64,000 nt of DNA from Berkelbacteria bacterium GW2011_GWE1_39_12 (GTDB lineage: Bacteria; Patescibacteriota; UBA1384; UBA12157). Shown here in pieces: positions 9,741-60,571 of the stretch (position 1 is its first letter; the number at the start of each line of letters is the position of its first letter). The stretch covers positions 11,709-75,708 of the forward strand of contig CP011213.1 in the NCBI GenBank assembly GCA_001029735.1, in the 5' to 3' direction. A model generated the notes under the pieces. The model made no database searches. It was not told where the DNA came from and saw only the letters and a list, made by a program, of their open reading frames with translations. A program made the translations under genes and the position numbers.

Positions 9741-10371
9741 ACTTTTTTATATTGTTAACGCATTAATAATATTAACCGGTTTTGGAATCGGCGCTTATTA
9801 CTTTCCAAAACTACCATCGATGATTGCAAACCATTGGGGGCCACAGGGCTTAGCCGACGGCTATTCTGATAAATCATGGGGCGTCTTTTTGATGCCGATT
9901 ATTTCTACGGTACTATTTTTACTTTTATCCTTCTTGCCACACATCGATCCGAATGCAAAAAATATCCAAAAGTTTCGCGAAAAATACAATATATTTGTAA
10001 CTGTAATGATGGTATTTTTCCTCTATCTCTTTGTTTTAACTATTTCATGGAACCTAGGCAATCAGTTTAACATGGTTCAATATTTAATGCCGGCCTTTGC
10101 CGTTTTATTTTATTTTGTTGGCGATCTCGTAAAAAACGCCGAGCCAAATTTTACAATCGGTATTCGCACGCCATGGACATTAAGTAATAGTAAAGTTTGG
10201 GAAAAGACTCACGAACTTGGCGCAAAGATATACCAATGGAGTGCTCTAATTATTTTAATCGGCATATTTGTACCTGATTTTGCTATCTTTTTTATGCTGA
10301 TTCCGGTCATTTTAAGCTCGTTATTATTAGTTCTATATTCATACCTAGAGTTTAGAAAGATTAAACAATGA
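9730..10371 (+). CDS. DUF1648/SdpI-like integral membrane protein
   Basis: NHWGPQGLADGYSDKS motif after first TM; 4-6 TM helices. Confidence 0.55.
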   Translation: MKIKLFYIVNALIILTGFGIGAYYFPKLPSMIANHWGPQGLADGYSDKSWGVFLMPIISTVLFLLLSFLPHIDPNAKNIQKFREKYNIFVTVMMVFFLYLFVLTISWNLGNQFNMVQYLMPAFAVLFYFVGDLVKNAEPNFTIGIRTPWTLSNSKVWEKTHELGAKIYQWSALIILIGIFVPDFAIFFMLIPVILSSLLLVLYSYLEFRKIKQ

Positions 10372-10628
10372 TTATTAAAAAGAAAACTTGGCCTGATTTA
10401 TTTCAAAAAGTATTTGACGGAGAAAAAACGTTTGATATGCGTCTGGCTGATTTTGATTGCAAAGAGGGCGATGTATTAGTACTGGAAGAATGGGACCCGG
10501 AGACTCGCGAATATACTGGACGAAAACTGGAAAAGAAAGTGACTTTTGTCTTAAAAACAAAGGGTATAACATTTTGGACAAAAGAAGAGGTAGGAAAATT
10601 TGGCTATCAAATCATCAGCTTTAAATAG
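10368..10628 (+). CDS. DUF3850/ASCH-like small protein
   Basis: 86 aa; KTFDMRLADFDCKEGDVLVLEEWD pattern of the ASCH-related DUF3850 fold. Confidence 0.45.
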   Translation: MIIKKKTWPDLFQKVFDGEKTFDMRLADFDCKEGDVLVLEEWDPETREYTGRKLEKKVTFVLKTKGITFWTKEEVGKFGYQIISFK

Positions 10629-25718: not shown

Positions 25719-26339
25719 TTACTTAAGCTCGACTTTGGCACCAGCTGCTTCAAGCTTTTTCTTAGCTTCTTCGGCTTCAGCTTTTGGCATATCTTTCTTA
25801 ATTTCTTTTGGTGCGGCATCTGCTAAGTCTTTCGCTTCTTTCAAACCTAATTCTTGGTTGATTTCGCGAAGAGCTTTAATGACGGCGATTTTCTGTGAAC
25901 CAGAGTCGGCTAAGACTAAGGTATAAGAAGATTTCTCTTCTTCAGCTGGGGCGGCGGCACCACCAGCGACTGCGCCAGCAGCGGCCATCATAGGAGCGGC
26001 GGCGGAAACACCAAAGCGTTCTTCAAGAGCTTTGACTAATTCTGCCAATTCCAAGGTGGTTAAACCTTCGATATCTTTGATTAAGTCAGCAAATTTACCG
26101 GTTGGTTCCGCTTTGGCCTCATTGGCTTCTTTGGCGGTTTCGTTGTCAGTGTTGATTGCTTCAACTTCGGCTGGAGTTTCTTCTTCTGCACCAGCGGCTT
26201 CTTCAACAGCTGCCCCAACTTGTGCTTTTTCGTCTACATTTGAACCAGCTTCTTCTTTGGAAGCTTCGTCGTTCAATTTTGTTTCAGCTTCAGCTTCTGC
26301 TTCAGCTTGTTTTTCTTCTTTTTTAATGTCGTCTGCCAT
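25719..26339 (-). CDS. rplL: 50S ribosomal protein L7/L12 with an about 78-aa acidic Glu/Ala-rich N-terminal extension
   Basis: Canonical [38 protein letters not shown] and CTD ...[18 protein letters not shown]...; SD before ATG at 26339; no internal Met before the canonical NTD. Confidence 0.9.
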
Positions 26340-26373
26340 AGTAATTCCTTTCTTAAGAATTAATTTATGATTA

Positions 26374-26892
26374 TTATCTACTATTTTTGTAGGTATCTAA
26401 AATGTATACCAGTGATCGAAGGTTACCTTGAAGCGCATTGACTAATCTAGACATTGGAGCGTTCAAAGTACCAACTAATTTTGCATATAGCTCATCTCGA
26501 CCAGGAAGAGCAGCTAATTGATTGACTGTATTTAAATCAACATACTGACCGTTTAAAATTCCACCTAATATTTCCAATTTTTCCGCTTCTTTACCGAAAG
26601 CAACCGTTAATTTAGCAGGATTTACTTCATCAACATCGCCCCAGATAACTGCAACTGGTTGATCCAATAAACTATTATCTAATTCGATGCCGGCTTTTTT
26701 TAAAGCAATTTTGAATAATGAATTTTTGACCACTTGAAAACTAATCTTTTCTGCGGCAAGTCTTTCTTTCAAGGTTTCAATTTCTTTATGCTTTAATCCT
26801 TGATAATTTACTAAAACGACAGCCTTGGATTTCTCCATTTGACCTGACATTTCAGCGACTAATTTTTCTTTTTTACTGCGGGTAAGTAGCAT
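26374..26892 (-). CDS. rplJ: 50S ribosomal protein L10
   Basis: L10 family sequence; immediately upstream of rplL. Confidence 0.9.
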
Positions 26893-27131
26893 TTATACCT
26901 CTTAAATTTAATTATGATACAAAAAATCTCGCCGATTAGCGAGACCAGAACTAGTTGAAAGTCGTAAAGTCTAAAGCCCCAAAGTAAAAACACTTTAAGA
27001 CTTTATGGACTTTATAAACTTTTAACTAATTTGTTTCGCCTCGATGGGATTTACTTTTTTACCCATTTTCTTCGGCAAATTCATATTATCATAAATTATG
27101 CGTAAATGTCAATAATGATGAGATCAACCTC

Positions 27132-27160
27132 TTGACTTTTGCCTCTTTTTGAGCTATTAT
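27132..27160 (+). promoter_or_regulatory. sigma70-like promoter TTGACT-N17-TATTAT for the CsrA-like gene
   Basis: Hexamers at 27132-27137 and 27155-27160; AAGGAGG SD at 27173-27179. Confidence 0.5.
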
Positions 27161-27187
27161 CTCAGTACTCGAAAGGAGGTGCGTTAA

Positions 27188-27502
27188 ATGCTGGTTTTGA
27201 CCAGAAAGATTGGAGAAAGCATACATATCGGCGATTACATTATGGAATTGCTGGAAGTTCAGAGGGATTCGGTCAAAATCAGCTTGACTGGTAAATTCTC
27301 TCAACAGATTATAAGTCTCAGTTTACGGCAAGAAGTTATTATTGACAAAGATAAAACCATCTCGTTTTTTGTCAATCGAATATGTTATTCCTGTAATCTA
27401 CGATTAGGGTATGCACAGTTTTGCATCAAAGCGCCACGCAGTATCCGGATAATGAGGAGCGAGTTATTGATCGCTCCAAGACAAAACATCAAGGAACCTT
27501 AA
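27188..27502 (+). CDS. CsrA-family (carbon storage regulator) like RNA-binding protein with divergent C-terminal extension
   Basis: N-terminus MLVLTRKIGESIHIGDYI...VKISL closely matches CsrA (MLVLSRKINEAIQIGADIEVKV...VKLGI); retains an Arg in the LRQEV region; own promoter, SD and terminator. Confidence 0.4.
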   Translation: MLVLTRKIGESIHIGDYIMELLEVQRDSVKISLTGKFSQQIISLSLRQEVIIDKDKTISFFVNRICYSCNLRLGYAQFCIKAPRSIRIMRSELLIAPRQNIKEP

Positions 27503-27515
27503 ATGGTTCCTTTTT
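27490..27515 (+). terminator. intrinsic terminator of the CsrA-like gene
   Basis: AAGGAACCttaaatGGTTCCTTtttt; stop codon in the loop. Confidence 0.6.
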
Positions 27516-27526
27516 TCATATAACAA

Positions 27527-27558
27527 TTCAAAAAATCGCCCAGATCGAGCGATTTTTT
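27527..27558. terminator. bidirectional terminator (also terminates rplA on the minus strand)
   Basis: aaaaAATCGCccagatcgaGCGATTtttt. Confidence 0.55.
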
Positions 27559-27576
27559 GAAATATGAGATGCTTCT

Positions 27577-28464
27577 CTATTTTTTTACTTTGACCGAAGG
27601 ACCCATAGTCGCGCAAATGTGAATACTGTTAATCTTATCGTTTGGAAGAGCTGCTATAAGTTCTTTGAAGTTTGCAGTCAATTCTTCGATTTTACCGCTG
27701 ACTTTTCCGATTACCTGATGAATATTTCCTGTAGAATCTGTTTTATACTCAACTTGTCCGCCTTCAAGATCAGCTTTGGTTTTTTCAGGGTCTAGAGTAA
27801 TAGTACCGGCTTTTGGATTAGGCATCTTTCCTTTTGGACCCAAAATTTTAGCTAATTTAGCGGCTTTTGGCATCAAGGCCGGAGTAACCAAATAAATATC
27901 GGCTTCAATCTTTTTGCTTGCAACAATTTCATCAATTAATTTTTCGTCCAAGATAACGACATTGATTTTTTTACCGGTACCGAAAGGATACTGTAACAAG
28001 CCTCTTGCTGCTTCAGGCTTTCCAGTTTTGCTTAATAATCTAACATGAGTTTCGACATTGCCGTCGAACTTAGTCATGGTTGTCTTTTTAACTAATTCTA
28101 ATGCTTCATCAATACTATATTTTTCTTTGACTTCAATAAGGGCTTTTACTTCTTGATATTTTTTAGAGCGAACTTTTGCCTTACCACGCTTTACTTTTTT
28201 GGCCTTTGTTTTTTTACCAGATTCTTTTTCTGCTTGGGTTTCAGCTTTTTCTTCTCCACCTTCTTTTTCTTCTGTTCCCGCAGCAGCACCAGCTTCTTTT
28301 TGAAACTTTGCTTGGCGAATTTTTTCGGCAATTTTTTCTTTGTTCGCTTTTGGCGTTACTTTTGCCTTACCATGATGGTCGGCATCGATATCGCTGAGAT
28401 CCTCGCCTTTGTCAATCGCTTCTTCTGACTGTGAAATCAAATCGTCTAGAGAATTTTTTCCCAT
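27577..28464 (-). CDS. rplA: 50S ribosomal protein L1 with an about 95-aa Lys/Glu/Ala-rich N-terminal extension
   Basis: L1 core from EKYSIDEALELVKK onward; GGAAGGA SD before ATG at 28464. Confidence 0.9.
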   Translation of the reverse strand: MGKNSLDDLISQSEEAIDKGEDLSDIDADHHGKAKVTPKANKEKIAEKIRQAKFQKEAGAAAGTEEKEGGEEKAETQAEKESGKKTKAKKVKRGKAKVRSKKYQEVKALIEVKEKYSIDEALELVKKTTMTKFDGNVETHVRLLSKTGKPEAARGLLQYPFGTGKKINVVILDEKLIDEIVASKKIEADIYLVTPALMPKAAKLAKILGPKGKMPNPKAGTITLDPEKTKADLEGGQVEYKTDSTGNIHQVIGKVSGKIEELTANFKELIAALPNDKINSIHICATMGPSVKVKK

Positions 28465-28517: not shown

Positions 28518-29063
28518 TTAAATGTTGATTGTTTCTTCTTTTATACCTTTGCTCAAAGATTCTAACACAAAGTCAGCTATCATGTCAACCATATTTTCCA
28601 GCTTTTCCGTGTCTTCAAAGCTCATTAAAACCCAGCTTTCGGTCGGTATTTTATCTGATTTTCCGACACCGATGCGAATGCGCCAGAATTCCGGACCAAT
28701 TGCGTCGATAATTGATTGGACACCTTTATGGCCGGCTGATGAGCCACCTAAGTTGATCCTGACCTTACCAGGCTCTAAATCAACATCGTCATGAATTACC
28801 CAGATATCTTCTGAGTCTACTTTGAAAAAGTTTTTGGTTTTGCCAACAGCTTTTCCTGATTCATTCATAAAGGTTTGCGGTTCGACTAATTTAATTCTAT
28901 GCTCAAAATCCCCCATTTCGGCATAGCGACTATCATACATACTCTCCAGTCGGAAAGTGATTCCCCTCTTTTCGGCAATTTTTCCCACCACTAAAAAACC
29001 GATATTGTGTCGGGTTTTTTCGTATTTTTCTCCGGGGTTACCTAATCCAATAATTAAACGCAT
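28518..29063 (-). CDS. pth: peptidyl-tRNA hydrolase
   Basis: MRLIIGLGNPG...HNIGF N-terminal signature. Confidence 0.9.
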   Translation of the reverse strand: MRLIIGLGNPGEKYEKTRHNIGFLVVGKIAEKRGITFRLESMYDSRYAEMGDFEHRIKLVEPQTFMNESGKAVGKTKNFFKVDSEDIWVIHDDVDLEPGKVRINLGGSSAGHKGVQSIIDAIGPEFWRIRIGVGKSDKIPTESWVLMSFEDTEKLENMVDMIADFVLESLSKGIKEETINI

Positions 29064-29792
29064 TTAAACTCCTACTTTTGATAGAATAAAAATTAACAAA
29101 AAGCCGAGGACGGTCGCCATTGACGAGTCAATTCCGCTTTCTTTAAACGCTTCTGGCATCATAGTTGATGCCAACATGGCCAAAATCGCTCCTGCAGCTA
29201 AGCTTTCGAGGGTTGCTACCACATTCGGTGAAAAACTTGAAAAGATTGTATAGCCTAAAATAACAAAGGCTAAACCAACTAAGGCAACGACAATCCAAGT
29301 GATTAATATTTCTTTGATGGATTTGCGCTGTTTTTTGAGATCGTAGGCGGAAGAGATCCCTTCAGGTAAGTTTGAGGAGAAAATACCAACCAACATTAAA
29401 AGACCGACAGCAGGATTTAAAAACAAACCAATTCCCAAGGCAATTGATTCAGGAATTCCATCAAGAATCGCCCCCAAAACAATCCCTCGTCCAGTTGAGC
29501 CTTCAGCATTGTAATAGCGTTTGTGGCCACGGCCCCCAGCTTTGATAATAAAGTAATCACCAATGACAAAAATTAAGCCTCCTACAACAAAACCTAGAAT
29601 AGAATTGTCAAATCCGCCTAATTTAAACGATTCTTCCATGAGACCAAAAGTTAATGCTGCAATCATTGCGCCAGCACCAAAGGCTGAAATAACGCCAATA
29701 ATTTTTTCTTTCACATGAAAAACTGAGCCTAAAATTGCTCCGACAATTAAAGGTAATACCGATAACATTCCATATAAAAAAACATTTGTCAT
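29064..29792 (-). CDS. ZIP-family divalent metal transporter (ZupT-like)
   Basis: 8 predicted TMs; NLPEG and GIPESIALG motifs resembling the ZIP HNxPEG signature. Confidence 0.5.
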   Translation of the reverse strand: MTNVFLYGMLSVLPLIVGAILGSVFHVKEKIIGVISAFGAGAMIAALTFGLMEESFKLGGFDNSILGFVVGGLIFVIGDYFIIKAGGRGHKRYYNAEGSTGRGIVLGAILDGIPESIALGIGLFLNPAVGLLMLVGIFSSNLPEGISSAYDLKKQRKSIKEILITWIVVALVGLAFVILGYTIFSSFSPNVVATLESLAAGAILAMLASTMMPEAFKESGIDSSMATVLGFLLIFILSKVGV

Positions 29793-40995: not shown

Positions 40996-41212
40996 GGCCT
41001 TAAAAATTGAATATCTCTCCAGGTTGTAACTGGTTGGAAGTTGATTGAAACCGAACTCTTAAATTTTGGTCAACTTCTTTCCTATTACACTTAGCCCCGG
41101 CTTTGCACTTTAAAATTAAATTGAAGCCGGTCAAAACCTTCGGGTTGGCTCAAGCTCGTAAAGGAGAGGAAAAAAAAGTTGGACCTGCTCGCAAGAGTGG
41201 GTCCTTCTTTTT
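40996..41212 (+). ncRNA. candidate structured small RNA (about 215 nt), family unknown
   Basis: No ATG in the whole unit; hairpins including C(UUCG)G at AACCttcgGGTT, CCGGCTT...AAGCCGG, GAAGTTGA...TCAACTTC; ends in GNRA-capped hairpin GGACCTGCTCgcaaGAGTGGGTCC plus U-run. Confidence 0.35.
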
Positions 41213-41934
41213 TATCGCTTAAAATCTTGATAGAGCTCGCTAAAAATATCGTCGGCTAAAGAAACATAGAATTCATCGAGATCTTTTTTACTAGGCTTAT
41301 TTTTATTGAACGTTACGAAATCGGCATCTTCAATGATAGCCAATGGAGTCTGTTCCGATCCTTCACCCATCGCTAAGACAGCTGTAACGGCTAAGCCGTC
41401 AACTATATTTACTCTTTCAAACTGTAACTTCCGACCAAAAATATCTTCTTTCCCAATATAACTTTTGAGCGGTGAAAACCCGTAAAAGCCGATAGCGACA
41501 CCGAGAACACCACATCTGAGCGGCAATGATCTGCTATCGGTAATAATGACTCCGAAATCTGTTTTATTGTATTTTTTTGATAAGTACTCATAAATTTTCT
41601 TCGCTGTGTTTTGCGGATTTTTCGGCAATAAGATATAATCACCGTTCCCATTGGATTCGTCAATTCCAGCCCCGGAAATAAATGCGTTATGTTTTATGGT
41701 AAGGAGACGATTGTTACAATTTCTTTTGGCGGAGATATGGTCCGCTTCATCTTTTATTAAGAATTCTTTGTCGAGTTCTTTTGAAGCGATACGGTTTTCC
41801 ATTAAGGAAATTATTTTTGAGGTGATAACGATGATGGAATTATCTTTAATTGTTTTTATATATTCATTAAGAAATTGATCAGTTGATAGTTGATTTGCAA
41901 GAATCTTTTTAGTTTTTATAACTTTAATTTTCAT
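41212..41934 (-). CDS. CofE-family (F420-0:gamma-glutamyl ligase-like) protein
   Basis: SGAGIDESN and VIITDS...RCGVLGVAIG...GKEDIFGRKL...LAMGEGSEQTPLAIIED match CofE signatures. Confidence 0.6.
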   Translation of the reverse strand: MKIKVIKTKKILANQLSTDQFLNEYIKTIKDNSIIVITSKIISLMENRIASKELDKEFLIKDEADHISAKRNCNNRLLTIKHNAFISGAGIDESNGNGDYILLPKNPQNTAKKIYEYLSKKYNKTDFGVIITDSRSLPLRCGVLGVAIGFYGFSPLKSYIGKEDIFGRKLQFERVNIVDGLAVTAVLAMGEGSEQTPLAIIEDADFVTFNKNKPSKKDLDEFYVSLADDIFSELYQDFKR

Positions 41935-41946
41935 GCTTTGGATCTC

Positions 41947-42492
41947 TTATCTTAAAATTTTGTTTTCTTTTACATCATAAATGGTTGATGGAGAATGCAA
42001 AGAAATTATATCAGACTTAACTACAAGATCAACCTGTTCAAGAAGTTTTGGATTAATGTCGGAGTATCTTGCCGGCGTACTCTCCCCTGCTAGGTTGGCA
42101 GACGTTGCGACAATTGGACCGGAGATTTCTAATAGACTTTGCAGCCATTTATCATCTGGCACACGAACGCCGATTTTTTCGTCCTTCAAGACGATTTCCG
42201 GAAAAGCGATGTCGTATTTATTAGCATCCGCAATAATTGTCACTTGGCCCTCTGGATATTTTTCGTACTCGGGTTTTAATAGTTCTGGAATATCTTTTTT
42301 ACTCATTAAGACCGCTGTCGGCTGAGAAAACGGACGGTTTTTGATTTCATAAAGTCGCTCAATCGCCTTTTGATTTAATCCACAGCCAATTCCATAAACA
42401 GTATCTGTCGGGAATACAAAAATGCCGCCCGATTTTAGAACTTCGGCGGCATCTTTGAGTGAACTTATATTTTCTTGTTCAACTATCTTCAT
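41947..42492 (-). CDS. tsaC: L-threonylcarbamoyladenylate synthase, YrdC/TsaC domain
   Basis: FVFPTDTVYGIGC motif; 181 aa single domain. Confidence 0.8.
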   Translation of the reverse strand: MKIVEQENISSLKDAAEVLKSGGIFVFPTDTVYGIGCGLNQKAIERLYEIKNRPFSQPTAVLMSKKDIPELLKPEYEKYPEGQVTIIADANKYDIAFPEIVLKDEKIGVRVPDDKWLQSLLEISGPIVATSANLAGESTPARYSDINPKLLEQVDLVVKSDIISLHSPSTIYDVKENKILR

Positions 42493-42501
42493 ATTAAAAG
42501 A

Positions 42502-42927
42502 CTATTTAGCTAATTCTATTCCCATGCTGCGAGCAGTACCTAAAATAATTTTTTTGGCAGCTTCCATATCGCGAGCATTCAAATCGTCCATCTTGATTTT
42601 GGCGATTTCTTCGACTTGAGCATCGGTAACTTTGCCGACTTTTTCACGATTTGGGACGCCTGAACCTTTTTCGATTCCAGCGGCTTTGCGTAATAAAACG
42701 GCGGCAGGTGGAGATTTCAAAATGAAATCAAAGGTGCGATCTTCGTAAACAGTAATTTCTACTGGAACGACAGTATCACCCATTTGAGCGGTCGCGGCGT
42801 TGAACTTTGTAACAAAATCCATGATGTTCAAACCGTGCTGACCCAAGGCTGGACCGATCGGAGGCGCCGGATTAGCCTTGCCAGCTGGTGCTTGTAACTT
42901 GATAATTGTTTTAATTTTTTTTGCCAT
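42502..42927 (-). CDS. rplK: 50S ribosomal protein L11
   Basis: [32 protein letters not shown] signature. Confidence 0.9.
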
Positions 42928-43011
42928 AATAATCCTAACTAATTACTAATCATACGAATGTACGAATCTTTATTGGTACATTTGTACCAAATTCGTAATT
43001 CGTTAGATAAT

Positions 43012-43734
43012 TTATACTTTTTTTACCTGCAGGAAGTCCAAGCTGACCGGAGTTTCGCGGCCAAACATGGAAACCAGGATTTTAACTTTACCTTTATCTT
43101 CGTCAATATCAGTGACTTTGGCTTCAAAGCCTTTTAACGGACCGTCAACGATTCTAACTAAGTCACCAGGACGGAATTCAATCTTATACTTTGGTTCTTC
43201 TACACCCATACGTTTCTTGATGCGATCAATTTCTTCCGGCATCATTGGGGTAGGTCTGACACCTAAACCGATAAAACCAGTAACGTTTGGTGTATTACGA
43301 ACGACATACCAAGAATCATCAGTAACAATCATCTCAACCATGACATAGCCAGGGAAGATTCTTTTTTCGACAGTGCGTCGTTTGCCGTTCTTAATTTCAA
43401 TTTGCTTTTCTTTTGGCACTAAAACTTGGAAAATCTTGTCTTCCATACCCAAGCTTTCGATTCTTTGTTTTAATTGATCGGAAACTTGTTCCTCATAACC
43501 GGAATAAGTATGAATTACGTACCAGCCGCGCTCGCCAGTCTGCTTTTGAGTTTTGATTTCTTCTTCGTCAGCTTCGGCTTGCTTTTCGGCTTTATCTTTT
43601 GCTTCTGGTTTATTCTCTTTTACTTCATCGACATTTTCCAATTCGCCGCCAGTTGCCTCTTCTAATTCAGCCACTTCGTCAGGGGTTTCTTTTTCAGTTT
43701 CTTTTGTTTGATCTACTTGCTCGTCTTTAGACAT
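43012..43734 (-). CDS. nusG: transcription termination/antitermination factor NusG with about 68-aa acidic N-terminal extension
   Basis: NGN domain GWYVIHTYSGYE...; KOW domain FRPGDLVRIVDGPLKGFEAKV; SD before ATG 43734. Confidence 0.9.
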   Translation of the reverse strand: MSKDEQVDQTKETEKETPDEVAELEEATGGELENVDEVKENKPEAKDKAEKQAEADEEEIKTQKQTGERGWYVIHTYSGYEEQVSDQLKQRIESLGMEDKIFQVLVPKEKQIEIKNGKRRTVEKRIFPGYVMVEMIVTDDSWYVVRNTPNVTGFIGLGVRPTPMMPEEIDRIKKRMGVEEPKYKIEFRPGDLVRIVDGPLKGFEAKVTDIDEDKGKVKILVSMFGRETPVSLDFLQVKKV

Positions 43735-44439: not shown

Positions 44440-45531
44440 TTAAAAAGTTATCTTTCGATGACGGAGGTAAATACTCTGCAATATGCCGATGGCGGCCATG
44501 TTTGTAATCATCGACGAACCTCCCGACGAAACAAAAGGCAGCGGAATACCCGTCACTGGCATAATACCAAGATTCATACCGATATTTACTAGAATTTGAA
44601 AAAGAAAAATTCCGGCAATTCCCCCGGACAAATACATGCCAAAATTATCTTTCGCTATAACTGCTACGTTAATTGTCCTCATAACCAAAAGGATAAGCAA
44701 GATAATTAAAAAAGTCGAACCAATAAAACCAGTTGCTTCTGCCGTGCCAGCGAAAATAAAATCAGTATGCGAAACAGGTAAAAAGTTTAATTGGCTTTGA
44801 GATCCTTTACCTAGGCCAGTACCCCAAAGACCACCAGAGCCAACAGCAATTTTTGCTTGAGAAACATTATAACCTGTTCCATGTGGATCGGCCGAAGGAT
44901 TTATAAAACTTGTGATTCTAAGCTGTTGGTACGGTTTTAAATAATGCCAACCAAGCGGTGAAATTACCACTGCGATAGCTAAGGCAACAATCAAATATAT
45001 TTTTTTTATTGGAGAAAGAAAAAGAACAGTAAGCAGTCCAATAAATATTACGGAGGCTGTTCCTAAATCTGGCTGGCGTAAAATTAATAAGGTAGGCACT
45101 CCAACCAAAGCCAGAATAAAAATTATTTTCCTCAAATCTAGTTCTTGCCAATCAGAAAAAAACTTAGCGAGAACAATTAAGATAATAATCTTAAAAAGTT
45201 CGGAGGGTTGAAGTTGAAAAAATTTCAAATCTATCCAACGCGTGGCACCAAAACTTTTTGAACCGATCAATAAAACTGCGATCAGTAAAATTACACCAAT
45301 TATATAAAGAACCAGCGAAAGACCTTTAAGTGTGCGGTAATCTAAATACGTTAAAAAGACCGTGGCTGCGATCCCGATTAAAAAAAACTCAATTTGATTA
45401 AGAGCAAGTGTAGAGTTAGTGCCATAACTAATTGAAAAAATGACAGCCGTGCCCAAACCGGTCAATAATAATGGTAATAAAAACAAAGACCAATCTAAAC
45501 CCAGTGTAAATTTGAGACGCGATAGTTTCAC
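44440..45531 (-). CDS. ftsW: SEDS-family peptidoglycan polymerase (FtsW/RodA)
   Basis: 10 TM helices; conserved SEDS loop ...PVSHTDFIFA... Confidence 0.85.
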   Translation of the reverse strand: MKLSRLKFTLGLDWSLFLLPLLLTGLGTAVIFSISYGTNSTLALNQIEFFLIGIAATVFLTYLDYRTLKGLSLVLYIIGVILLIAVLLIGSKSFGATRWIDLKFFQLQPSELFKIIILIVLAKFFSDWQELDLRKIIFILALVGVPTLLILRQPDLGTASVIFIGLLTVLFLSPIKKIYLIVALAIAVVISPLGWHYLKPYQQLRITSFINPSADPHGTGYNVSQAKIAVGSGGLWGTGLGKGSQSQLNFLPVSHTDFIFAGTAEATGFIGSTFLIILLILLVMRTINVAVIAKDNFGMYLSGGIAGIFLFQILVNIGMNLGIMPVTGIPLPFVSSGGSSMITNMAAIGILQSIYLRHRKITF

Positions 45532-48500
45532 TTTTTAACCCCGATCCAAAGATCATCATTATTCAACTTAATATCAATGCTTTGGTCGACTTCTCGACGT
45601 TCAAATTTAATATCAGTTAATTTGGTTTCGTTTTTAATTTCATCCTTAAATTTTTTAATTAAATCAATAATTCCCAAATTACCATCAGCAAATAATTCGA
45701 CTAAATCATCAGGACTATAGCCAGATTTTTTTCTTAAATCTTGAATTGCACGAACAATATCATTTTTCATACCTTCGTCCTGCAATTCTGGTGTGATTTC
45801 TTGATCGATTTCTATTTCTTTGTATCCTGTAAATACTACTTCTTTTACATTTACTTCATCCTCAATTATTTTTTCAAATTCTTCGTCTAATTTTTTACCG
45901 CCGTATTTTAGATATCCAAGCGGCTGTCTAACTTTATATTTCGGTCCAAGCGCCGCACGAGCAGCTAAACCTTGTTCGATAATTACGCGAGTCTCTGACA
46001 TTTTTTCATTTATGCCTTTATTAATTATATCTTCATTAGCCACTGGAAAATTTTCTAAATGAACCGATTCCCTACTGGTCAAATTCTTAAAAATTTCTTC
46101 GGTAGTAAACGGCATAAAGGGTGCCAGTGTTTTTGACAGTTCAACTAAAACAGTATGCAAAGTTTGATATGCGTTGTTTTTATCCTCAGCATTCCCCTGT
46201 TTTTGAAAACGCTTACGTGATCGGCGGATATACCAATTTGAAAGGTTATCAACGAACGGAACAAATAAGCGCGCGGCTTTTGTTAATTCATATTTTTCCA
46301 TATTGGCATTGACATCTTTAATTAACTGGTTTAGTTCCGACAAAATCCACTTATCCAATATGTTTTCAGATTTTGCGGACAATTCAGAATTTTCTTTTGC
46401 TTTAAAATTATCGATATTGGCATAAAGAGTGAAAAACGAATAAGAATTCCAAAGCATTCTAAAGAAGCCTTTGCTAAATTGATCCAAATCTTTTTCTGAA
46501 AAATTTAAATTCTCCGCTTGTAAGATTTGCGATGAAAGTAAATACATGCGCAAAACATCAGCGCCGTATCTATCGAGTACTTCAACAGGATCCGGATAGT
46601 TTTTCAAACGCTTACTCATTTTTTTGCCGTCTTCAGCCAAAACGATTCCGCTTACAATAACGTTTTTATACGCAACACTTTTTTTAATAGACGTAGCGAT
46701 CAAATGTAAATAATAAAACCAAGCGCGTGTTTGGTCTTGGGCTTCGGCGATAAAATTTGCTGGAAAATAATTGGCAAATTTTTCTTTATTTTCAAACGGG
46801 TAATGGATTTGCGCGTAAGGCATTGAACCGCTATCAAACCAAGTGTCTAAAACATCTGGCACACGATGTGCTTCTTTACCGCATTTATCGCAATTAATTG
46901 TGAAATTATCAATTTTATCTTTATGTAAATCAACTATTTGAGCATTCTCATCAACATAGAATGTCTGAACTCCGTTATGATCAAAATCTTCACGATCGAA
47001 GTATTCATCCAGCTTACAATCGTTTAAAATTTTATTCATGGAAGCATTTGTACCGCCATGGCCAACAATTAGAATATTTTTACCGGCGTATTTTTTAGCA
47101 ATTTCTTTCAGAAAATTTTCAATTCGATCAACTACTTCTTGACGATTTTCTCCAGTAGTTCCAAATTTACAGTTAAATCTTTCTTCCAAGGTCTTTAAAG
47201 CTTTATAACTTTTATAGCTTTCGTCTTCTTTGAGTAATTCTTCTTTTGATGTATCATTCCATGAGCCAAATTGGTTTTCAGTAATGCGGTCGTCGAAAAT
47301 TAATTCAGTCTGTAATTTTTTATTGATAATCTCTGCCGTTTGTTTGGTTCTTAAAACTGGCGAACTAATAATCAGATCAATGTCTTTTAATTTATCAGCG
47401 CCATTTTCTGCTTGGACCTTCCCCTTTTCCGTTAATGGAAATTTATCTAACGAATGTGAACTAATTTTTAAAACATTTTTTTCACTTTCGCCGTGACGAA
47501 CAAAACTTATTTTGGTGATTTTTTGATTTGTCTCTTTTCTTAAATCATCCATTGAGCCAAAAACTTTAATTTCACCACATCCGCCATGCTCGGCGGAACA
47601 TCGCCACAAAGGAATAACCGAAGCCCAATAACGCTGGCGTGAAATTGACCAATCTCTAGCACCTTCCAACCATTTTCCAAATCTGCCTTCTTTAATGTGT
47701 TTTGGCGACCAATTAATTTCTTTGGCTAAATTCAATAAATCAGGCTTTACTTTGATAACGTTAACAAACCAGGATGACGTCGCGTAATTTAACAAAGGAG
47801 TTTCACAACGCCAACAATGCGGATAAGAATGTTCGTATTTTTCTTTAGAAAAGAGCAAATTTCTTGAAGCTAAATTCTTAATAATTTCTACATCTGTTTT
47901 CTGAACATCTTCTGGATGTTTAACATGCATACCAGCAAATTGTTTAACCTCAGGCTTAATAATACCGTCCATACCGATGTGCTGTACAAACGGCAAATTT
48001 TTCTTTTTTCCTAAATTTAAATCGTCTTCTCCAAATGCTGGTGCAATGTGAACAATACCAGTCCCCTCTTCGGTTGTAACAAAAGGAGCATCTACAATCT
48101 TCCAACCGTTGTTACTGTTTTCGATTTCCAAGTCTTTATAATCACGATACAACGGATCATATTTTTGACCGATTAGTTCTTCGCCAGGAAAATCTTCCAA
48201 TTTTTCAAATTCTCTATCTTTAAAAACATCGGCTAATCTGTTTTTAGCTAAAATATATTTTTCCGATTCACCAGTATCTTCGTTTTGTGATTGAACTTTA
48301 ACATACTCAATGTCTTTTCCGACCGCTAATGCTACATTGGCGATTAATGTCCATGGAGTAGTTGTCCAAGCAAGGACGAAGGTCCCCTGTTCATCGATTA
48401 GCTCAAATTTGGCGGTAGCAGATAAATCTTTGATTGTCTTATAACCTTCAGTTACTTCTGATTGAGATAGAGTTGTTTCGCAGCGCGGGCAGATATGCAT

Positions 48501-49037
48501 TGATCTATAGCCTTCATAAACCAAATCTTTATCGTACAGCTCTTTAAAAACCCACCAGACTGATTCCATGTATGAAAAATCCATAGTACGATAAGCGTTT
48601 TTCATATCAACCCAGCGGCCTAGTTTTGGAATAATTTTTTCCCATTCATCTACATAGCCCAAAACTTTATCACGGCAAATATTATTGAATTTATCAATGC
48701 CTAAATCTTCGATTTCTTTTTTATGAGTGATTCCAAGTTCTTGCTCAGCAATATTTTCAATCGGAAGGCCGTGACAATCCCATCCCCAAATACGATCGAC
48801 TTGAAAACCCTTCATTGTGAAAAATCTTGGCACCGCATCTTTGGCAACACTTTGAACTAGATGCCCATAATGAGGAGTTCCGGTCGCAAACGGCGGGCCA
48901 TCGTAAAAACTAAATATTGGTGAGCCTTTGCGATTTTCAATAGATTTTTTAAAAGTATCGTTTTCTTGCCAAAAGTTTAAAATCTCGTTTTCGATCTCTG
49001 GCAATTTAACTTGGGAGTCAATTTTTTTATAACTCAT
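45528..49037 (-). CDS. ileS: isoleucine--tRNA ligase, eukaryote/archaeal-like type 2, carrying an inserted histidine-phosphatase (PGAM-like) domain of about 190 aa
   Basis: PFATGTPHYGH (HIGH), KMSKR; CP1 editing motif WTTTPWTL; insertion residues about 508-698 with RHGES, SSPVLRTKQTA, ENQFGSW, LIVGHGGT between the WRCSAEHGGCGEI and DLHKDKIDNFTINCDKCG...VPDVLDTWFDSG segments. Confidence 0.9.
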   Translation of the reverse strand: MSYKKIDSQVKLPEIENEILNFWQENDTFKKSIENRKGSPIFSFYDGPPFATGTPHYGHLVQSVAKDAVPRFFTMKGFQVDRIWGWDCHGLPIENIAEQELGITHKKEIEDLGIDKFNNICRDKVLGYVDEWEKIIPKLGRWVDMKNAYRTMDFSYMESVWWVFKELYDKDLVYEGYRSMHICPRCETTLSQSEVTEGYKTIKDLSATAKFELIDEQGTFVLAWTTTPWTLIANVALAVGKDIEYVKVQSQNEDTGESEKYILAKNRLADVFKDREFEKLEDFPGEELIGQKYDPLYRDYKDLEIENSNNGWKIVDAPFVTTEEGTGIVHIAPAFGEDDLNLGKKKNLPFVQHIGMDGIIKPEVKQFAGMHVKHPEDVQKTDVEIIKNLASRNLLFSKEKYEHSYPHCWRCETPLLNYATSSWFVNVIKVKPDLLNLAKEINWSPKHIKEGRFGKWLEGARDWSISRQRYWASVIPLWRCSAEHGGCGEIKVFGSMDDLRKETNQKITKISFVRHGESEKNVLKISSHSLDKFPLTEKGKVQAENGADKLKDIDLIISSPVLRTKQTAEIINKKLQTELIFDDRITENQFGSWNDTSKEELLKEDESYKSYKALKTLEERFNCKFGTTGENRQEVVDRIENFLKEIAKKYAGKNILIVGHGGTNASMNKILNDCKLDEYFDREDFDHNGVQTFYVDENAQIVDLHKDKIDNFTINCDKCGKEAHRVPDVLDTWFDSGSMPYAQIHYPFENKEKFANYFPANFIAEAQDQTRAWFYYLHLIATSIKKSVAYKNVIVSGIVLAEDGKKMSKRLKNYPDPVEVLDRYGADVLRMYLLSSQILQAENLNFSEKDLDQFSKGFFRMLWNSYSFFTLYANIDNFKAKENSELSAKSENILDKWILSELNQLIKDVNANMEKYELTKAARLFVPFVDNLSNWYIRRSRKRFQKQGNAEDKNNAYQTLHTVLVELSKTLAPFMPFTTEEIFKNLTSRESVHLENFPVANEDIINKGINEKMSETRVIIEQGLAARAALGPKYKVRQPLGYLKYGGKKLDEEFEKIIEDEVNVKEVVFTGYKEIEIDQEITPELQDEGMKNDIVRAIQDLRKKSGYSPDDLVELFADGNLGIIDLIKKFKDEIKNETKLTDIKFERREVDQSIDIKLNNDDLWIGVKK

Positions 49038-49447
49038 GCATTCCCTTTCATCATGGCTTCATCGATCGCTTCATTAACCAATTTGTCGGCAACTTTATTT
49101 TGTTCGCGTGGCACATGTTGGAAAAATACTTTACCACCCAATCTCAAGATTAAATCTCTAATTTCCCAAAATAAAGGCTTCAAGCCTTCATTTTTTAGTT
49201 TGTAATTACCGTTCAGCTGTTCAACAACTAGTTGGGAGTCGAGATAAAATTGAATTTCTAATTCTTCAGCAAAGTTATTGACAATATATTTTAAGGCTTC
49301 CAATACGGCAGTATATTCAGCTTGGTTATTTGTGGCAACACCAATATATTTTCCGATTTTAGTTTCTGGCAAAATCAAAAAACCGATTCCTGCGTGACCA
49401 GGATTGCCACGTGATCCGCCGTCGGTAAAAACTGTAAGCTGTTGCAT
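49034..49447 (-). CDS. rnhA: ribonuclease HI
   Basis: TDGGSRGNPGHAGIG N-terminal motif; DEDD catalytic pattern. Confidence 0.85.
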   Translation of the reverse strand: MQQLTVFTDGGSRGNPGHAGIGFLILPETKIGKYIGVATNNQAEYTAVLEALKYIVNNFAEELEIQFYLDSQLVVEQLNGNYKLKNEGLKPLFWEIRDLILRLGGKVFFQHVPREQNKVADKLVNEAIDEAMMKGNA

Positions 49448-52500: not shown

Positions 52501-52823
52501 AAAACAATAGTGTCGCCTTTATAAATAGTGTTTCCACTTGCATCTTTTCCCGTATTGCCTGTAATCGAGATATCAGTACCATTAACACGATGATAGGCGC
52601 CAAAACCAAAAGTAAAACTCCCCTTAAAATCAAAAACGTTTGTCATATTTGTGCTGTCATAATAAGCCGTATCAGGCGATGTCCAGGTGGTCGATTTGTA
52701 ATATGGGTCAGCGTGAGCTTTGCCGAAACTTAAGAAAAATAATAAAGAAAAAGAAATCAAAATAAAAGTGCTTTTTCCAAAGAACATAAGTAATTTCATA
52801 GCTTTTGATTGGGATTGTATCAT
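49545..52823 (-). CDS. giant Ser/Thr/Asn-rich secreted surface protein (1092 aa) with Ig-like and FWWNC-type repeat domains and a conserved C-terminal module
   Basis: Signal peptide; repeated TIPYNTAA.LAWSS.N...C and YSFWWNCP domains; C-terminus VAPAGNPSSVRVDVNVNWNERGIQKSVDYYSILENLK shared with 53586-55784. Confidence 0.7.
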   Translation of the reverse strand: MIQSQSKAMKLLMFFGKSTFILISFSLLFFLSFGKAHADPYYKSTTWTSPDTAYYDSTNMTNVFDFKGSFTFGFGAYHRVNGTDISITGNTGKDASGNTIYKGDTIVFKSLQGSNPGFALYPDSNHFGYAAAYNYNSSLINTIGVLGQYSRSGYWGSNDQGCSVPTAETGSFDTIGLERTLYTNFAVNSPTNFSESSLVNLTYVSPHVYTVTNTGTISANISFASTPAALYSEMLYHNTLIGSVDRCTGGKVQDFTYSANFSGASGFLNTAVATPVPSLSAALTAVPSAVNTATSTKLTGSSVSQNQTGNYNFSFWWNCPNYATATAKDYTSVSKVCGTLTNDSTTVTGFKKDNQTSTGWAVDHIYTSAGTYTPVYVVERGGLADYASATVTVDAILTPTVNLTANGNTGTITIPYNTAATLAWSSTNNPTSCTASGSWSGAKSVSGSQSTGALTSSKSYSLYCTNSSGSSPTATVNVNVGSPPPPFTMSANLHSDLSSYSVGQNVYLTASAGNLDSVTSSYGDWFNYYYWEDCSNGPTTTNLSLANYTASTLKDWYSSANFCNKQPEYHIYNGDGINYWNMTTNNLAPYTYSTAGTKHPFVFIYNSNTGATVQAPAVTVSSAPGPTIDLRANNHSGSTTISYNTAANLTWTTSNATACTVSGSWTGSRATSNTTGESTGNLTSSRSYSMSCTGPGGNANANVNVNVGASVTPSVSLMEIDSSNPSNQKTNTDDAGNAPAITIPYGGSVILNWSQSNATTCYTAGSPTESNWNWNTSSPASSGSSTISNITQAHTFTLFCNYNWEKFTSAQVILYVTPPQTLTVGITAAPSTGPAPMNVNITATPTSTGFTSETYNYYFWMDCSVAPGYVSGVMKCGGQLPFAANINTSNSSASHTATYNAGTYNPRVYIERGTKSSTASTSVNYTASATTLSATLSAIPSTGFMPLSTILTANRDSASTATGSISYSFWWNCPDSAITSGAKNSVSNVSHFCGPLTDLDVNDAGYKANAQSFTVTSISTPANPATVYVSANMYTARLIIEQGTATPHVTTIPIIVAPAGNPSSVRVDVNVNWNERGIQKSVDYYSILENLK

Positions 52824-60514: not shown

Positions 60515-60571
60515 TTTTTCCCTTATATTTAATTCACCAGTCATTCGACCAGATGACTTGTTTTTCAACTA

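What the first reader, a model, noticed from the sequence alone, without database searches (positions are those of the whole stretch)
27132..27515. CsrA-like RNA-binding protein gene embedded antisense in the rplA-rplJ spacer (L10 leader region)
The plus-strand ORF at 27188 begins MLVLTRKIGESIHIGDYI...VKISL. This is very close to CsrA N-termini (MLVLSRKINEAIQIGADIEVKV...VKLGI) and retains an Arg at the position of the RNA-binding R44. The protein then diverges into a roughly 50-aa extension. The gene has its own TTGACT-N17-TATTAT promoter, a strong SD and a terminator. It lies antisense to the leader through which the minus-strand rplJ-rplL operon must be transcribed. A CsrA-like post-transcriptional regulator placed opposite a ribosomal-protein leader suggests antisense or competitive regulation.
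Basis: partly seen in the sequence, partly recalled or inferred. Interest (0 to 1): 0.55.

Follow-up and report, generated by a model that had tools for sequence, protein, structure and literature searches.

The report
Single-chain, one-sited CsrA-like RNA-binding gene
A small gene inserted between two ribosomal-protein genes of a Candidatus Berkelbacteria genome encodes an unusual CsrA-type RNA-binding regulator built from one and a half CsrA repeats in a single chain; this probably leaves one RNA-binding surface instead of two, and the gene does not overlap the ribosomal L10 leader as first proposed.

Summary
The ORF 27188-27502 (+), 104 aa, is real and belongs to the CsrA family (Pfam PF02599, 46.3 bits against a cutoff of 27). 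Its promoter, Shine-Dalgarno sequence and terminator are confirmed.

- **The C-terminal half is not a divergent extension.** The protein is CsrA strands b1-b4, a short linker, then a second degenerate CsrA repeat b1'-b5'. The true R44 equivalent is R90, in the motif APRSIRIMRSEL.
- **The gene is not antisense to the L10 leader.** The leader (27093-26961) and its conserved promoter (27112-27083) lie outside the gene and are transcribed divergently from it. rplA has its own terminator.

The closest relative with the same gene order lacks the roughly 460-nt cassette, so the gene is a lineage-specific insertion.

About 40 related protein clusters share the architecture, and several lie on phages or prophages. 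All keep b1 residues L2/L4/R6/R7 in repeat 1 and b5 residues A36/P37/R44/E46 in repeat 2. All have lost the complementary pair.

In the CsrA dimer, one RNA site is formed by b1 of one subunit and b5 of the other. The pattern therefore predicts a single-chain pseudo-dimer with one GGA-binding surface. AlphaFold2 gives nine strands (pLDDT 85.5).

Function is inferred, not shown. This is a new variant of a known kind.

The parts
27132..27160 (+). Sigma-70-type promoter of the csrA-like gene (TTGACT-17-TATTAT)
   Evidence: Consensus scan, 10 of 12 positions. The element is absent from the relative L011, so it is part of the inserted cassette.
27173..27180 (+). Shine-Dalgarno sequence AAGGAGGT, 7 nt before the ATG. 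It contains a GGA at 27175.
   Evidence: Read directly from the sequence.
27188..27502 (+). CsrA-family ORF of 104 aa (identical to P0001, annotated at NCBI as 'carbon storage regulator', Candidatus Berkelbacteria)
   Evidence: Pfam PF02599, 46.3 bits against a cutoff of 27. The identical protein occurs on 4-5 groundwater-metagenome contigs.
27188..27289 (+). Repeat 1: CsrA strands b1-b4 (residues 1-34). It keeps the b1 RNA-contact residues L2, L4, R6, K7 and has no b5 or helix.
   Evidence: Home-built canonical CsrA HMM, positions 1-34, 37.8 bits. Key-residue table. AF2 strands at residues 2-7, 11-14, 17-24 and 28-34.
27290..27304 (+). Short linker (residues 35-39, GKFSQ) joining b4 of repeat 1 to b1' of repeat 2
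   Evidence: AF2 leaves a 4-residue gap between strands 28-34 and 39-46. Relatives have linkers of similar length.
27305..27478 (+). Repeat 2: degenerate CsrA b1'-b4' followed by a conserved b5' and a short helix (residues 40-97). The b1' basic residues are lost: L44 and S45 stand where R6 and R7 would be.
   Evidence: hhalign of the middle segment against canonical CsrA b1-b4 gives probability 91.9%, E 7e-7, aligning residues 40-75 with CsrA 2-34. The closest relative P0003 matches HMM positions 2-55 in its repeat 2. Alignment with full tandem CsrA-CsrA proteins.
27431..27469 (+). b5' RNA-binding motif A82-P-R-S-I-R-I-M-R90-S-E92-L-L94, equivalent to CsrA A36-Y48 with R90 = R44
   Evidence: HMM positions 32-54, 18.9 bits. 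A82, P83, R90 and E92 are invariant in 15 long-form proteins.
27491..27520 (+). Intrinsic terminator of the csrA-like gene (8-bp stem, 6-nt loop, T-run). It overlaps the stop codon.
   Evidence: Terminator scan.
27527..27561 (-). Intrinsic terminator of rplA (16-bp stem), convergent with the csrA-like terminator
   Evidence: Terminator scan. Inverted repeat I1.
27083..27112 (-). rplJ-rplL promoter (TTGACA-16-GATAAT, or spacer 18 with TAATAT), divergent from the csrA-like promoter
   Evidence: Consensus scan, 11 of 12 positions. TTGACA-N17-xATAAT is conserved at the same place in L011, L013 and L014.
26961..27093 (-). L10 leader RNA. It is not overlapped by the ORF.
   Evidence: Rfam RF00557, 42.1 bits (gathering score 44), E 1.1e-4. 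The core GCCGAAGAAAATGGGTA...ATCCCATCGAGG is conserved in four lineages, with compensatory changes in the hairpin.
26925..26946 (-). Terminator-like hairpin with a T-run between the L10 leader and the rplJ Shine-Dalgarno sequence (probable attenuator)
   Evidence: Terminator scan. The stem GTCTCGC...GCGAGA plus T-run is conserved in the relatives.
27113..27576 (.). Segment of about 460 nt present here but absent from the closest syntenic relative. It holds the rplA terminator and the whole csrA-like cassette.
   Evidence: Pairwise alignment with L011, where the rplA stop is followed within about 10 nt by the rplJ promoter. No target-site duplication or terminal inverted repeat was found.

Best explanation
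The gene is real and independently transcribed. It encodes a CsrA-family protein with a 'one-and-a-half repeat' architecture:
- **Repeat 1:** a truncated CsrA repeat, strands b1-b4, residues 1-34.
- **Linker:** a turn of about 5 residues.
- **Repeat 2:** a second, diverged but complete repeat, b1'-b5' plus a short helix, residues about 40-97.

In canonical CsrA, two 5-stranded subunits intertwine through b1 and b5. Each of the two RNA-binding surfaces is formed by b1 of one subunit and b5 of the other.

Here one polypeptide is predicted to rebuild that intertwined sandwich as a pseudo-dimer with nine strands. Only one surface survives, made of b1 of repeat 1 (L2, L4, R6, K7) and b5' of repeat 2 (I86, I88, R90, E92, L93). 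The complementary surface has been deleted (b5 of repeat 1) or has degenerated (b1' of repeat 2).

The most likely activity is monovalent binding of GGA-containing RNA motifs, typically at Shine-Dalgarno regions. This would repress translation without the two-site bridging used by dimeric CsrA.

The gene is a lineage-specific insertion of about 460 nt. It probably came from phages or prophages, where several related clusters lie. It sits between the rplA stop and the rplJ promoter, diverges from that promoter, and does not overlap the L10 leader.

**Shown:** the ORF, family membership, the two-repeat homology, the complementary conservation pattern, the insertion, and the positions of the promoter and leader.

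**Inferred:** the pseudo-dimer strand pairing, monovalency, RNA specificity, the regulatory role and the horizontal origin.
For: **Family membership**
- Pfam CsrA 46.3 bits against a cutoff of 27.

**Two repeats**
- A canonical CsrA HMM built from 107 ordinary CsrA proteins hits every long-form protein twice.
- For the window protein these hits cover residues 1-33 (HMM 1-34) and 78-100 (HMM 32-54).
- Its nearest relative P0003 matches HMM 1-34 and HMM 2-55.
- The unmatched middle was tested with b5 excluded and with the tandem and 133-aa forms excluded. It aligns to CsrA b1-b4 with hhalign probability 91.9%, E 7e-7.
- Full tandem CsrA-CsrA proteins (P0005, P0006) align repeat-for-repeat with the long forms.

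**Complementary loss**
- All 40 truncated two-repeat clusters keep L2/L4/R6/(R/K)7 in repeat 1 and lack R44/E46 there.
- In those 40, the b1 motif of repeat 2 is lost or degenerate. R6 is recognisably retained only in P0147; P0003 and P0132 keep just a basic residue at position 7.
- All 40 keep A36/P37/x40/x42/R44/E46/x47 in repeat 2.
- The six full tandems keep both sets.
- Invariant columns across 15 long forms are M1, L2, R6, A82, P83, R90 and E92.

**Dimer geometry from the literature**
- RNA surfaces are made of b1 and b5 of opposing monomers, and L4 and R44 are critical (PMC7652899).
- The dimer forms by intertwining of b1 and b5 into two five-stranded sheets (PMC7366521).

**Structure prediction**
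- AF2 with the 15-sequence alignment gives pLDDT 85.5, pTM 0.74 and nine strands.
- Seven predicted viral protein structures match at E <= 1e-3, five of them (88-106 aa) over the whole length with TM 0.62-0.86.

**Genomic setting**
- Promoters, terminators and the leader were mapped.
- The rplJ promoter and leader are conserved in four lineages.
- The cassette is absent from the syntenic relative L011.
- Relatives sit in a Vibrio phage, a Pseudomonas phage, a phage-like contig and a lambdoid prophage.
Against: - No coordinates could be inspected, so the b1-b4' and b5'-b2 pairings of the pseudo-dimer are inferred, not seen.
- Foldseek against PDB chains found nothing significant. This is expected for an intertwined dimer searched chain by chain, but it gives no support.
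- The AF2 alignment is shallow (15 sequences) and contained tandem CsrA proteins, which could bias the model. The single-sequence model was poor, with pLDDT 44.
- In the window protein itself, repeat 2 strands b1'-b4' are too diverged to be matched directly. Their homology is transitive, through relatives.
- The protein scores below NCBIfam's CsrA equivalog cutoffs (48 against 70.1).
- No expression data exist.
- Only one species-level sequence is known. All contigs are 99.95-100% identical, so purifying selection could not be measured.
- The protein could still self-associate and become bivalent.
Confidence: 0.68

Rival explanations
1. It is an ordinary homodimeric CsrA carrying an insertion of about 45 residues between b4 and b5. 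The insert forms an extra beta appendage, two chains still intertwine, and the protein keeps two symmetric RNA-binding sites.
For: The only strongly conserved elements are b1 and b5, which a homodimer with an insert would also conserve. In the window protein the insert is not directly recognisable as CsrA. Known CsrA variants tolerate internal rearrangement and still dimerise, for example RsmN, 4kji.
Against: - The insert is homologous to CsrA b1-b4: hhalign probability 91.9%, and direct HMM matches in most relatives.
- A graded series exists, from full tandems through 133-aa forms with a decayed b5 to forms of 92-115 aa.
- AF2 folds the single chain confidently as a compact nine-strand unit, pTM 0.74.
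- The 4-5-residue linker fits a b4-b1' hairpin that would place b1' where the partner subunit's b1 sits.
Confidence: 0.15
2. It is a non-functional relic: a horizontally acquired phage gene that is silent or decaying, with no role in this bacterium.
For: It is a singleton. No orthologue above about 38% identity exists among 5.8 billion proteins. It is absent from the closest syntenic relative. Repeat 2 is highly diverged. No partner such as FliW or a GGA-rich sRNA was seen in the window.
Against: - The reading frame is intact.
- All family-invariant RNA-contact residues are retained.
- The promoter is near-consensus, the Shine-Dalgarno sequence is strong and a terminator is present.
- The G+C content is 38.7%, like the window at 39.2%.
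- The same sequence occurs in several independent assemblies.
Confidence: 0.1
3. One reading: the gene or its transcript acts in cis, as an antisense or competitive regulator of the L10 (rplJ) leader on the opposite strand.
For: The gene is close to the leader. Its promoter lies 19 nt from the -35 hexamer of the rplJ promoter, so the two divergent promoters could interfere or be co-regulated. If rplA transcription read through two terminators it would be antisense to the gene.
Against: - The ORF and its predicted transcript (about 27167-27515) do not overlap the leader (27093-26961) or the rplJ promoter.
- rplJ has its own conserved promoter, so its transcription need not cross the gene.
- The rplJ leader has no GGA.
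- Relatives carry the same leader without this gene.
Confidence: 0.04

Closest known systems
Canonical CsrA/RsmA/RsmE (Pfam PF02599; PDB 1Y00, 1VPZ, 2BTI, 2JPP)
   Same: - The N-terminal b1-b4 sequence MLVLTRKIGESIHIGD...VKISL.
- The b5 motif APxxIxIxRxEL, with the R44 equivalent at R90.
- The Pfam score is above the gathering threshold.
- Presumably the same GGA recognition through b1 and b5.
   Different: - One chain of 104 aa with nine strands, rather than two chains of about 61-75 aa with five strands each.
- The second RNA surface is missing, so it is predicted to be monovalent.
- It scores below the NCBIfam equivalog cutoffs.
- No FliW or sponge sRNA lies nearby.
Engineered heterodimeric CsrA with one R44A subunit (Mercante et al. 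2009, as summarised in PMC7652899)
   Same: A CsrA scaffold with only one functional RNA-binding surface. This is the nearest functional analogue of what is predicted here.
   Different: It is an artificial two-chain construct. It showed that full repression of glgC needs both surfaces. The protein here would be a natural, single-chain version whose targets, if any, must be controlled through single sites.
Natural tandem CsrA-CsrA fusions (unnamed; e.g. P0005, P0006, P0125, P0131, P0134, P0148; 122-160 aa)
   Same: Two CsrA repeats in one polypeptide. They align repeat-for-repeat with the window protein.
   Different: Both repeats are complete and keep both RNA-contact sets, so they would be bivalent single-chain dimers. 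The window protein has lost b5 and the helix of repeat 1, and the basic b1 residues of repeat 2.
RsmN/RsmF of Pseudomonas aeruginosa (PDB 4KJI)
   Different: From my own knowledge of the RsmN/RsmF papers: RsmN is a homodimer with a helix inserted between b2 and b3 and two RNA sites. It has no internal duplication.
CsrA homologues on mobile elements (RsmQ on plasmid pQBR103, PMC9928087; phage-borne RsmM-type alleles, PMC7366521)
   Same: Several related clusters of the long form lie in phages or prophages, and the window gene is a lineage-specific insertion. This fits the known traffic of csrA alleles on mobile elements.
   Different: The described mobile-element CsrA proteins are single-repeat proteins that form dimers. 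The one-and-a-half-repeat architecture was not mentioned in the papers I could search.

Membership tests
CsrA/RsmA family (Pfam PF02599) | Profile-HMM match above the curated threshold | tested here: met
   PF02599, E 4.2e-12, 46.3 bits against a cutoff of 27. The match comes in two pieces, residues 1-34 and about 78-100.
CsrA/RsmA family (Pfam PF02599) | b1 RNA-contact residues (L2, L4, R6, R/K7) | tested here: met
   L2, L4, R6 and K7 are present. M1, L2 and R6 are invariant in 15 long-form proteins.
CsrA/RsmA family (Pfam PF02599) | b5 motif with the critical Arg (R44) and neighbours (A36, P37, V40, V42, E46, I47) | tested here: met
   A82, P83, I86, I88, R90, E92 and L93 are present. A82, P83, R90 and E92 are invariant.
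CsrA/RsmA family (Pfam PF02599) | Homodimer of two five-stranded subunits giving two identical RNA-binding surfaces | tested here: not met
   At the sequence level, one chain carries 1.6 repeats. The second surface (b5 of repeat 1 plus basic b1 of repeat 2) is absent. AF2 gives nine strands in one chain. The oligomeric state itself could not be tested.
CsrA/RsmA family (Pfam PF02599) | Sequence-specific binding of GGA motifs in RNA and translational control | not testable with these tools
   This needs EMSA or ITC with purified protein. Only the contact residues could be checked.
CsrA orthologue in the strict sense (NCBIfam TIGR00202 / NF002469 equivalogs) | Score above the equivalog cutoff | tested here: not met
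   TIGR00202: 48 bits against 70.1. NF002469: 39.9 against 73.
Csr/Rsm or CsrA-FliW regulatory system | An antagonist: FliW encoded next to csrA, or a GGA-rich sponge sRNA | tested here: inconclusive
   The neighbours are rplA and rplJ. Ten small ORFs in the window gave no FliW hit. The densest GGA clusters in the window lie in coding sequence. The rest of the roughly 0.9-Mb genome could not be searched.
   The leader lies at 27093-26961 and its promoter at 27112-27083. The gene's transcript is predicted at about 27167-27515.
L10 leader (Rfam RF00557), as the neighbouring element | Covariance-model match upstream of rplJ, with a conserved structure | tested here: inconclusive
   42.1 bits, just under the gathering score of 44, E 1.1e-4. 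No match at gathering score was found in the relatives. The core sequence is conserved in four lineages with compensatory hairpin changes.
Truncated two-repeat ('one-and-a-half') CsrA group (unnamed, defined here) | Two hits to a canonical CsrA HMM in one chain of about 92-151 aa. Repeat 1 keeps b1 but lacks R44. Repeat 2 has a lost or degenerate b1 motif and keeps b5. | tested here: met
   The window protein and 39 other clusters show this pattern; three of them keep a remnant of b1 in repeat 2 (P0147 keeps R6, P0003 and P0132 a basic residue at position 7). Six full tandems do not show it.

The most novel reading that the evidence does not exclude
The truncated two-repeat CsrA proteins form a natural class of monomeric, single-site RNA-binding regulators. 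They are carried partly by phages and prophages, and they occlude single GGA or Shine-Dalgarno sites without the two-site bridging, sponge sRNAs or FliW that govern dimeric CsrA. In this Berkelbacteria genome, one copy has been domesticated back to back with the rplJ promoter, so its expression is coupled, positively or by promoter competition, to ribosomal-protein synthesis.
Probability: 0.25. Interest if true: 0.7.

Novelty: new variant of a known kind. Interest (0 to 1): 0.5.

Why it matters
CsrA is one of the best-studied bacterial post-transcriptional regulators. Its mechanism is usually explained by a symmetric homodimer that bridges two GGA sites and is titrated by multi-site sRNAs or by FliW.

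A natural single-chain form that has lost exactly one of the two RNA surfaces would be an evolutionary counterpart of the engineered one-site heterodimer used to show the importance of bridging. It would let the field ask what a monovalent CsrA can regulate.

Several relatives lie in phages and prophages. This suggests a minimal tool for taking over host translation.

For this window the practical result is simpler. The gene is an inserted, independently transcribed CsrA-like gene, not an antisense element of the L10 leader.

Tried and rejected
- **AF2 on the single sequence.** pLDDT was 44, so the model was unusable.
- **Foldseek against PDB chains.** No hit at E <= 1e-3; the best were generic beta-meander proteins.
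- **afdb50 fold library.** Not available.
- **Genome-contig scans.** Scans with the CsrA-like protein and with rplJ both returned nothing.
- **tblastn of the window protein against phage genomes.** It found only canonical Pseudomonas-phage CsrA through the N-terminal 35 residues. The long phage forms appeared only when P0012 was used as query.
- **PHROGs.** Only generic 'CsrA-like regulator' families matched, as single repeats.
- **Search for a CsrB-like sRNA by GGA density.** The top windows are coding sequence, for example a small ORF at 10370-10627.
- **Search for FliW among ten small ORFs.** None found.
- **Search for mobile-element ends around the insertion.** No convincing direct or inverted repeats.
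- **dN/dS.** Impossible, because all contigs carrying the gene are 99.95-100% identical.
- **P0002 (445 aa).** This hit from the representative search is an unrelated Lys-rich repeat protein and was discarded.
- **Literature.** Searches for tandem, single-chain or CPR CsrA found no description of this architecture.
Full report
**1. What is in the sequence**

The window carries an ATG-initiated ORF at 27188-27502 on the plus strand. It encodes 104 aa: MLVLTRKIGESIHIGDYIMELLEVQRDSVKISLTGKFSQQIISLSLRQEVIIDKDKTISFFVNRICYSCNLRLGYAQFCIKAPRSIRIMRSELLIAPRQNIKEP.

Its expression signals are as follows:
- An AAGGAGGT Shine-Dalgarno sequence at 27173-27180.
- A TTGACT-17-TATTAT promoter at 27132-27160.
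- A hairpin plus T-run terminator at 27491-27512.

The flanking genes are on the minus strand:
- rplL at 25719-26339.
- rplJ at 26374-26892.
- rplA at 27577-28464.
- pth at 28518-29063.

The identical protein is in public databases as 'carbon storage regulator [Candidatus Berkelbacteria bacterium]'. It occurs on several groundwater-metagenome contigs that are 99.95-100% identical to the window over 2.2 kb.

**2. Family assignment**

Pfam CsrA (PF02599) matches at E 4.2e-12 and 46.3 bits, against a gathering score of 27. The NCBIfam CsrA equivalogs match but fall below their cutoffs (TIGR00202: 48 against 70.1). So the protein belongs to the CsrA superfamily but is not an ordinary orthologue.

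The match is split in two:
- Residues 1-34 align to CsrA positions 1-35.
- Residues about 78-100 align to CsrA positions 32-54.

The second piece contains APRSIRIMRSEL, the counterpart of E. coli A36-I47, with R90 equivalent to R44.

In the collinear alignment, R44 falls on S43. The 'divergent 50-aa extension' in fact ends in the most diagnostic CsrA motif.

**3. The middle is a second CsrA repeat**

An exhaustive HMMER search of 1.84 billion representative proteins found only eight hits. Among them:
- Four proteins of 100-114 aa align over the full length.
- Two proteins of 159-160 aa are complete CsrA-CsrA tandems.

Two profile searches raised the set to 46 two-repeat clusters among the 233 proteins retrieved. 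I built a canonical CsrA HMM from 107 ordinary CsrA sequences of at most 90 aa. It hits each of these proteins twice.

The nearest relative, P0003 (35-38% identity), has repeat 1 matching HMM 1-34 and repeat 2 matching HMM 2-55.

For the window protein, strands b1'-b4' of repeat 2 are too diverged for a direct match. I therefore took the segments equivalent to residues 35-80 from eleven proteins of about 100 aa and compared them with canonical b1-b4 only. The b5 motif, the tandems and the 133-aa forms were all excluded. hhalign gives probability 91.9% and E 7e-7, aligning residues 40-75 with CsrA 2-34. MAFFT aligns the full tandems repeat-for-repeat with the long forms.

**4. Complementary loss of one RNA surface**

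Literature held in the library describes the dimer as follows:
- It forms by intertwining of b1 and b5 into two five-stranded sheets (PMC7366521).
- Each of the two RNA-binding surfaces consists of the parallel b1 and b5 strands of opposing monomers.
- L4 and R44 are critical.
- Both surfaces are needed for full repression of glgC through two-site bridging (PMC7652899).

I aligned each repeat of the 46 proteins to the canonical HMM and read the key positions:

| Group | Repeat 1, b1 (L2/L4/R6/R-K7) | Repeat 1, b5 (R44/E46) | Repeat 2, b1 | Repeat 2, b5 (A36/P37/x40/x42/R44/E46/x47) |
|---|---|---|---|---|
| 40 truncated forms, including the window protein | kept | lost | lost or degenerate (R6 kept only in P0147) | kept |
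| 6 full tandems | kept | kept | kept | kept |

Across 15 long forms the invariant columns are M1, L2, R6, A82, P83, R90 and E92.

The retained elements, b1 of repeat 1 and b5 of repeat 2, are exactly those that would form one surface in a pseudo-dimer. The lost elements are exactly those of the other surface. This is the main argument for a single-chain, one-site CsrA.

**5. Structure prediction**

- With the single sequence, AF2 failed (pLDDT 44).
- With the 15-sequence alignment it gave pLDDT 85.5 and pTM 0.74.
- The model has nine strands, at residues 2-7, 11-14, 17-24, 28-34, 39-46, 49-53, 58-68, 73-81 and 88-90. That is four strands plus five, as predicted.
- The 4-residue connection between strands 28-34 and 39-46 fits a b4-b1' hairpin. 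This is where the partner subunit's b1 lies in the dimer.

Fold comparisons:
- Foldseek against PDB chains gave nothing significant. This is unsurprising, because a CsrA chain alone is half of an intertwined fold.
- Against predicted viral structures, seven proteins match at E <= 1e-3. Five of them (88-106 aa) match over the whole length with TM 0.62-0.86; the two 160-aa proteins match over only part of their length.

**6. Where relatives live**

Forms of 92-95 aa occur in:
- Vibrio phage vB_VpM-pA2SJ1, annotated 'hypothetical protein' (WRQ13114.1).
- Vibrio phage vB_VpP_1.
- Pseudomonas phage vsMR.
- A contig with portal, Mu-F and M15 lysin genes.

The 109-aa form of Spartinivicinus ruber lies in a lambdoid prophage, between the cI/O/P region and the integrase. 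P0003 and P0012 sit on contigs where most ORFs have no Pfam match. The 133-aa forms are chromosomal, for example in Lysobacter.

None of these relatives is next to ribosomal-protein genes, so the rplA-rplJ location is specific to this genome.

**7. Relation to the L10 leader**

- Rfam places the L10 leader at 27093-26961 on the minus strand (42.1 bits, gathering score 44, E 1.1e-4).
- A TTGACA-16-GATAAT promoter matching 11 of 12 positions sits immediately upstream at 27112-27085.
- A metagenome scan with rplJ recovered four related loci at 65-80% identity. All four lineages (the window, L011, L013, L014) have TTGACA-N17-xATAAT followed by the same leader core.
- The first hairpin shows compensatory changes: GGGTA...ATCCC against AAGCA...GACTT.

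The rplJ-rplL unit therefore starts at about 27078. The csrA-like promoter fires in the opposite direction, with the two -35 hexamers 19 nt apart.

rplA ends in its own 16-bp-stem terminator (27561-27527), convergent with the csrA-like terminator.

In L011 the gene order is the same: prfB, ybaB, pth, rplA, rplJ, rplL, tgt. There the rplA stop is followed within about 10 nt by the rplJ promoter, and no such ORF exists. So window 27113-27576, about 460 nt, is an insertion of the whole cassette. No target-site duplication or terminal repeats were found.

The rplJ leader contains no GGA triplet. The csrA-like mRNA has GGA in its own Shine-Dalgarno sequence (27175) and again at 27212. Autoregulation is conceivable but untested.

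The antisense model is therefore not supported.

**8. Partners**

- No FliW gene is adjacent, and none was found among ten small ORFs tested.
- No second CsrA-like ORF occurs in the window in a six-frame search.
- No GGA-dense non-coding region was found.
- The rest of the genome could not be examined.

**9. Verdict**

The CsrA assignment is right. The architectural description and the antisense interpretation are wrong.

The best explanation is an acquired, independently transcribed gene for a one-and-a-half-repeat, single-chain CsrA that retains one RNA-binding surface.

- **Shown:** the ORF and its signals, family membership, two-repeat homology, complementary conservation, the insertion, and the positions of leader and promoter.
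- **Inferred:** the strand pairing of the pseudo-dimer, monomeric state, GGA binding, the regulatory role and the phage origin.

I found no description of this architecture in the searchable literature. Databases label these proteins simply 'carbon storage regulator' or 'hypothetical'. I rate it a new variant of a known kind, of moderate interest.

Noticed in passing
P0005, P0006, P0125, P0131, P0134, P0148 (metagenomic proteins, 122-160 aa): These are complete CsrA-CsrA tandem fusions. Both repeats keep all RNA-contact residues, so they would be natural single-chain bivalent CsrA dimers. They look like the starting point of the truncation series.
   Followed up: partly
P0018, P0105, P0126-P0149 (about 20 clusters of about 133 aa, e.g. 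Lysobacter sp. GCA_019634715.1; L015 5001-5402): This is an intermediate two-repeat CsrA form. Repeat 1 keeps an 'AP/VP' remnant of b5 but has lost R44, and a basic linker of about 25 residues precedes repeat 2. In L015 it overlaps the preceding 131-aa ORF by 13 nt, within a run of ORFs with no Pfam match.
   Followed up: partly
window 27577-28464 (-) and 25719-26339 (-): Ribosomal protein L1 is 295 aa, with a Lys/Glu-rich N-terminal extension of about 90 residues. L7/L12 is 206 aa, with an acidic, Ala-rich N-terminal extension of about 80 residues. Both extensions recur in the relative L011 (303 and 202 aa), so they are probably real features of this lineage.
   Followed up: partly
window 41212-43734 (-) versus 25719-28464 (-): The usual nusG-rplK-rplA-rplJ-rplL cluster is split. 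nusG (43012-43734) and rplK (42502-42927) are followed by a Sua5/YciO/YrdC-family gene and an F420-ligase-like gene. rplA-rplJ-rplL lie 14 kb away, downstream of pth.
   Followed up: partly
window 45528-49037 (-): This isoleucyl-type class I tRNA synthetase of 1169 aa carries a histidine-phosphatase domain (His_Phos_1) inserted at residues 511-701, inside the catalytic domain.
   Followed up: no
window 49545-52823 (-) and 49034-49447 (-): A 1092-aa ORF has no Pfam match at E <= 1e-5. It is followed by an RNase H-like ORF of 137 aa whose end overlaps the start of the tRNA synthetase gene by 4 nt.
   Followed up: no
L011 about 2900-2990, and L013 upstream of rplJ (alignment columns 307-398): Relatives carry an extra GC-rich segment of about 50-90 nt (AATCTAATTC...GAAGAGATTAACCCCGA...) between the L10-leader terminator hairpin and the rplJ Shine-Dalgarno sequence. 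The window lacks it. It may be a small repeated or structured element.
   Followed up: no
window 29064-29792 (-): A ZIP-family metal transporter gene lies between ybaB and pth here. It is absent from the syntenic relative L011. This is a second lineage-specific indel within 2 kb of the csrA-like insertion.
   Followed up: no
window 27190-27202 and 27271-27283 (+): A 13-nt inverted repeat, 92% complementary (GCTGGTTTTGACC / GGTCAAAATCAGC), starts right at the start codon of the csrA-like ORF. It could fold the translation-initiation region of its mRNA.
   Followed up: no
window 58081-58524 (-) and 60101-60568 (-): Two small proteins carry the prokaryotic N-terminal methylation motif (type IV pilin-like). 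No flagellar genes were seen among the ORFs tested.
   Followed up: no
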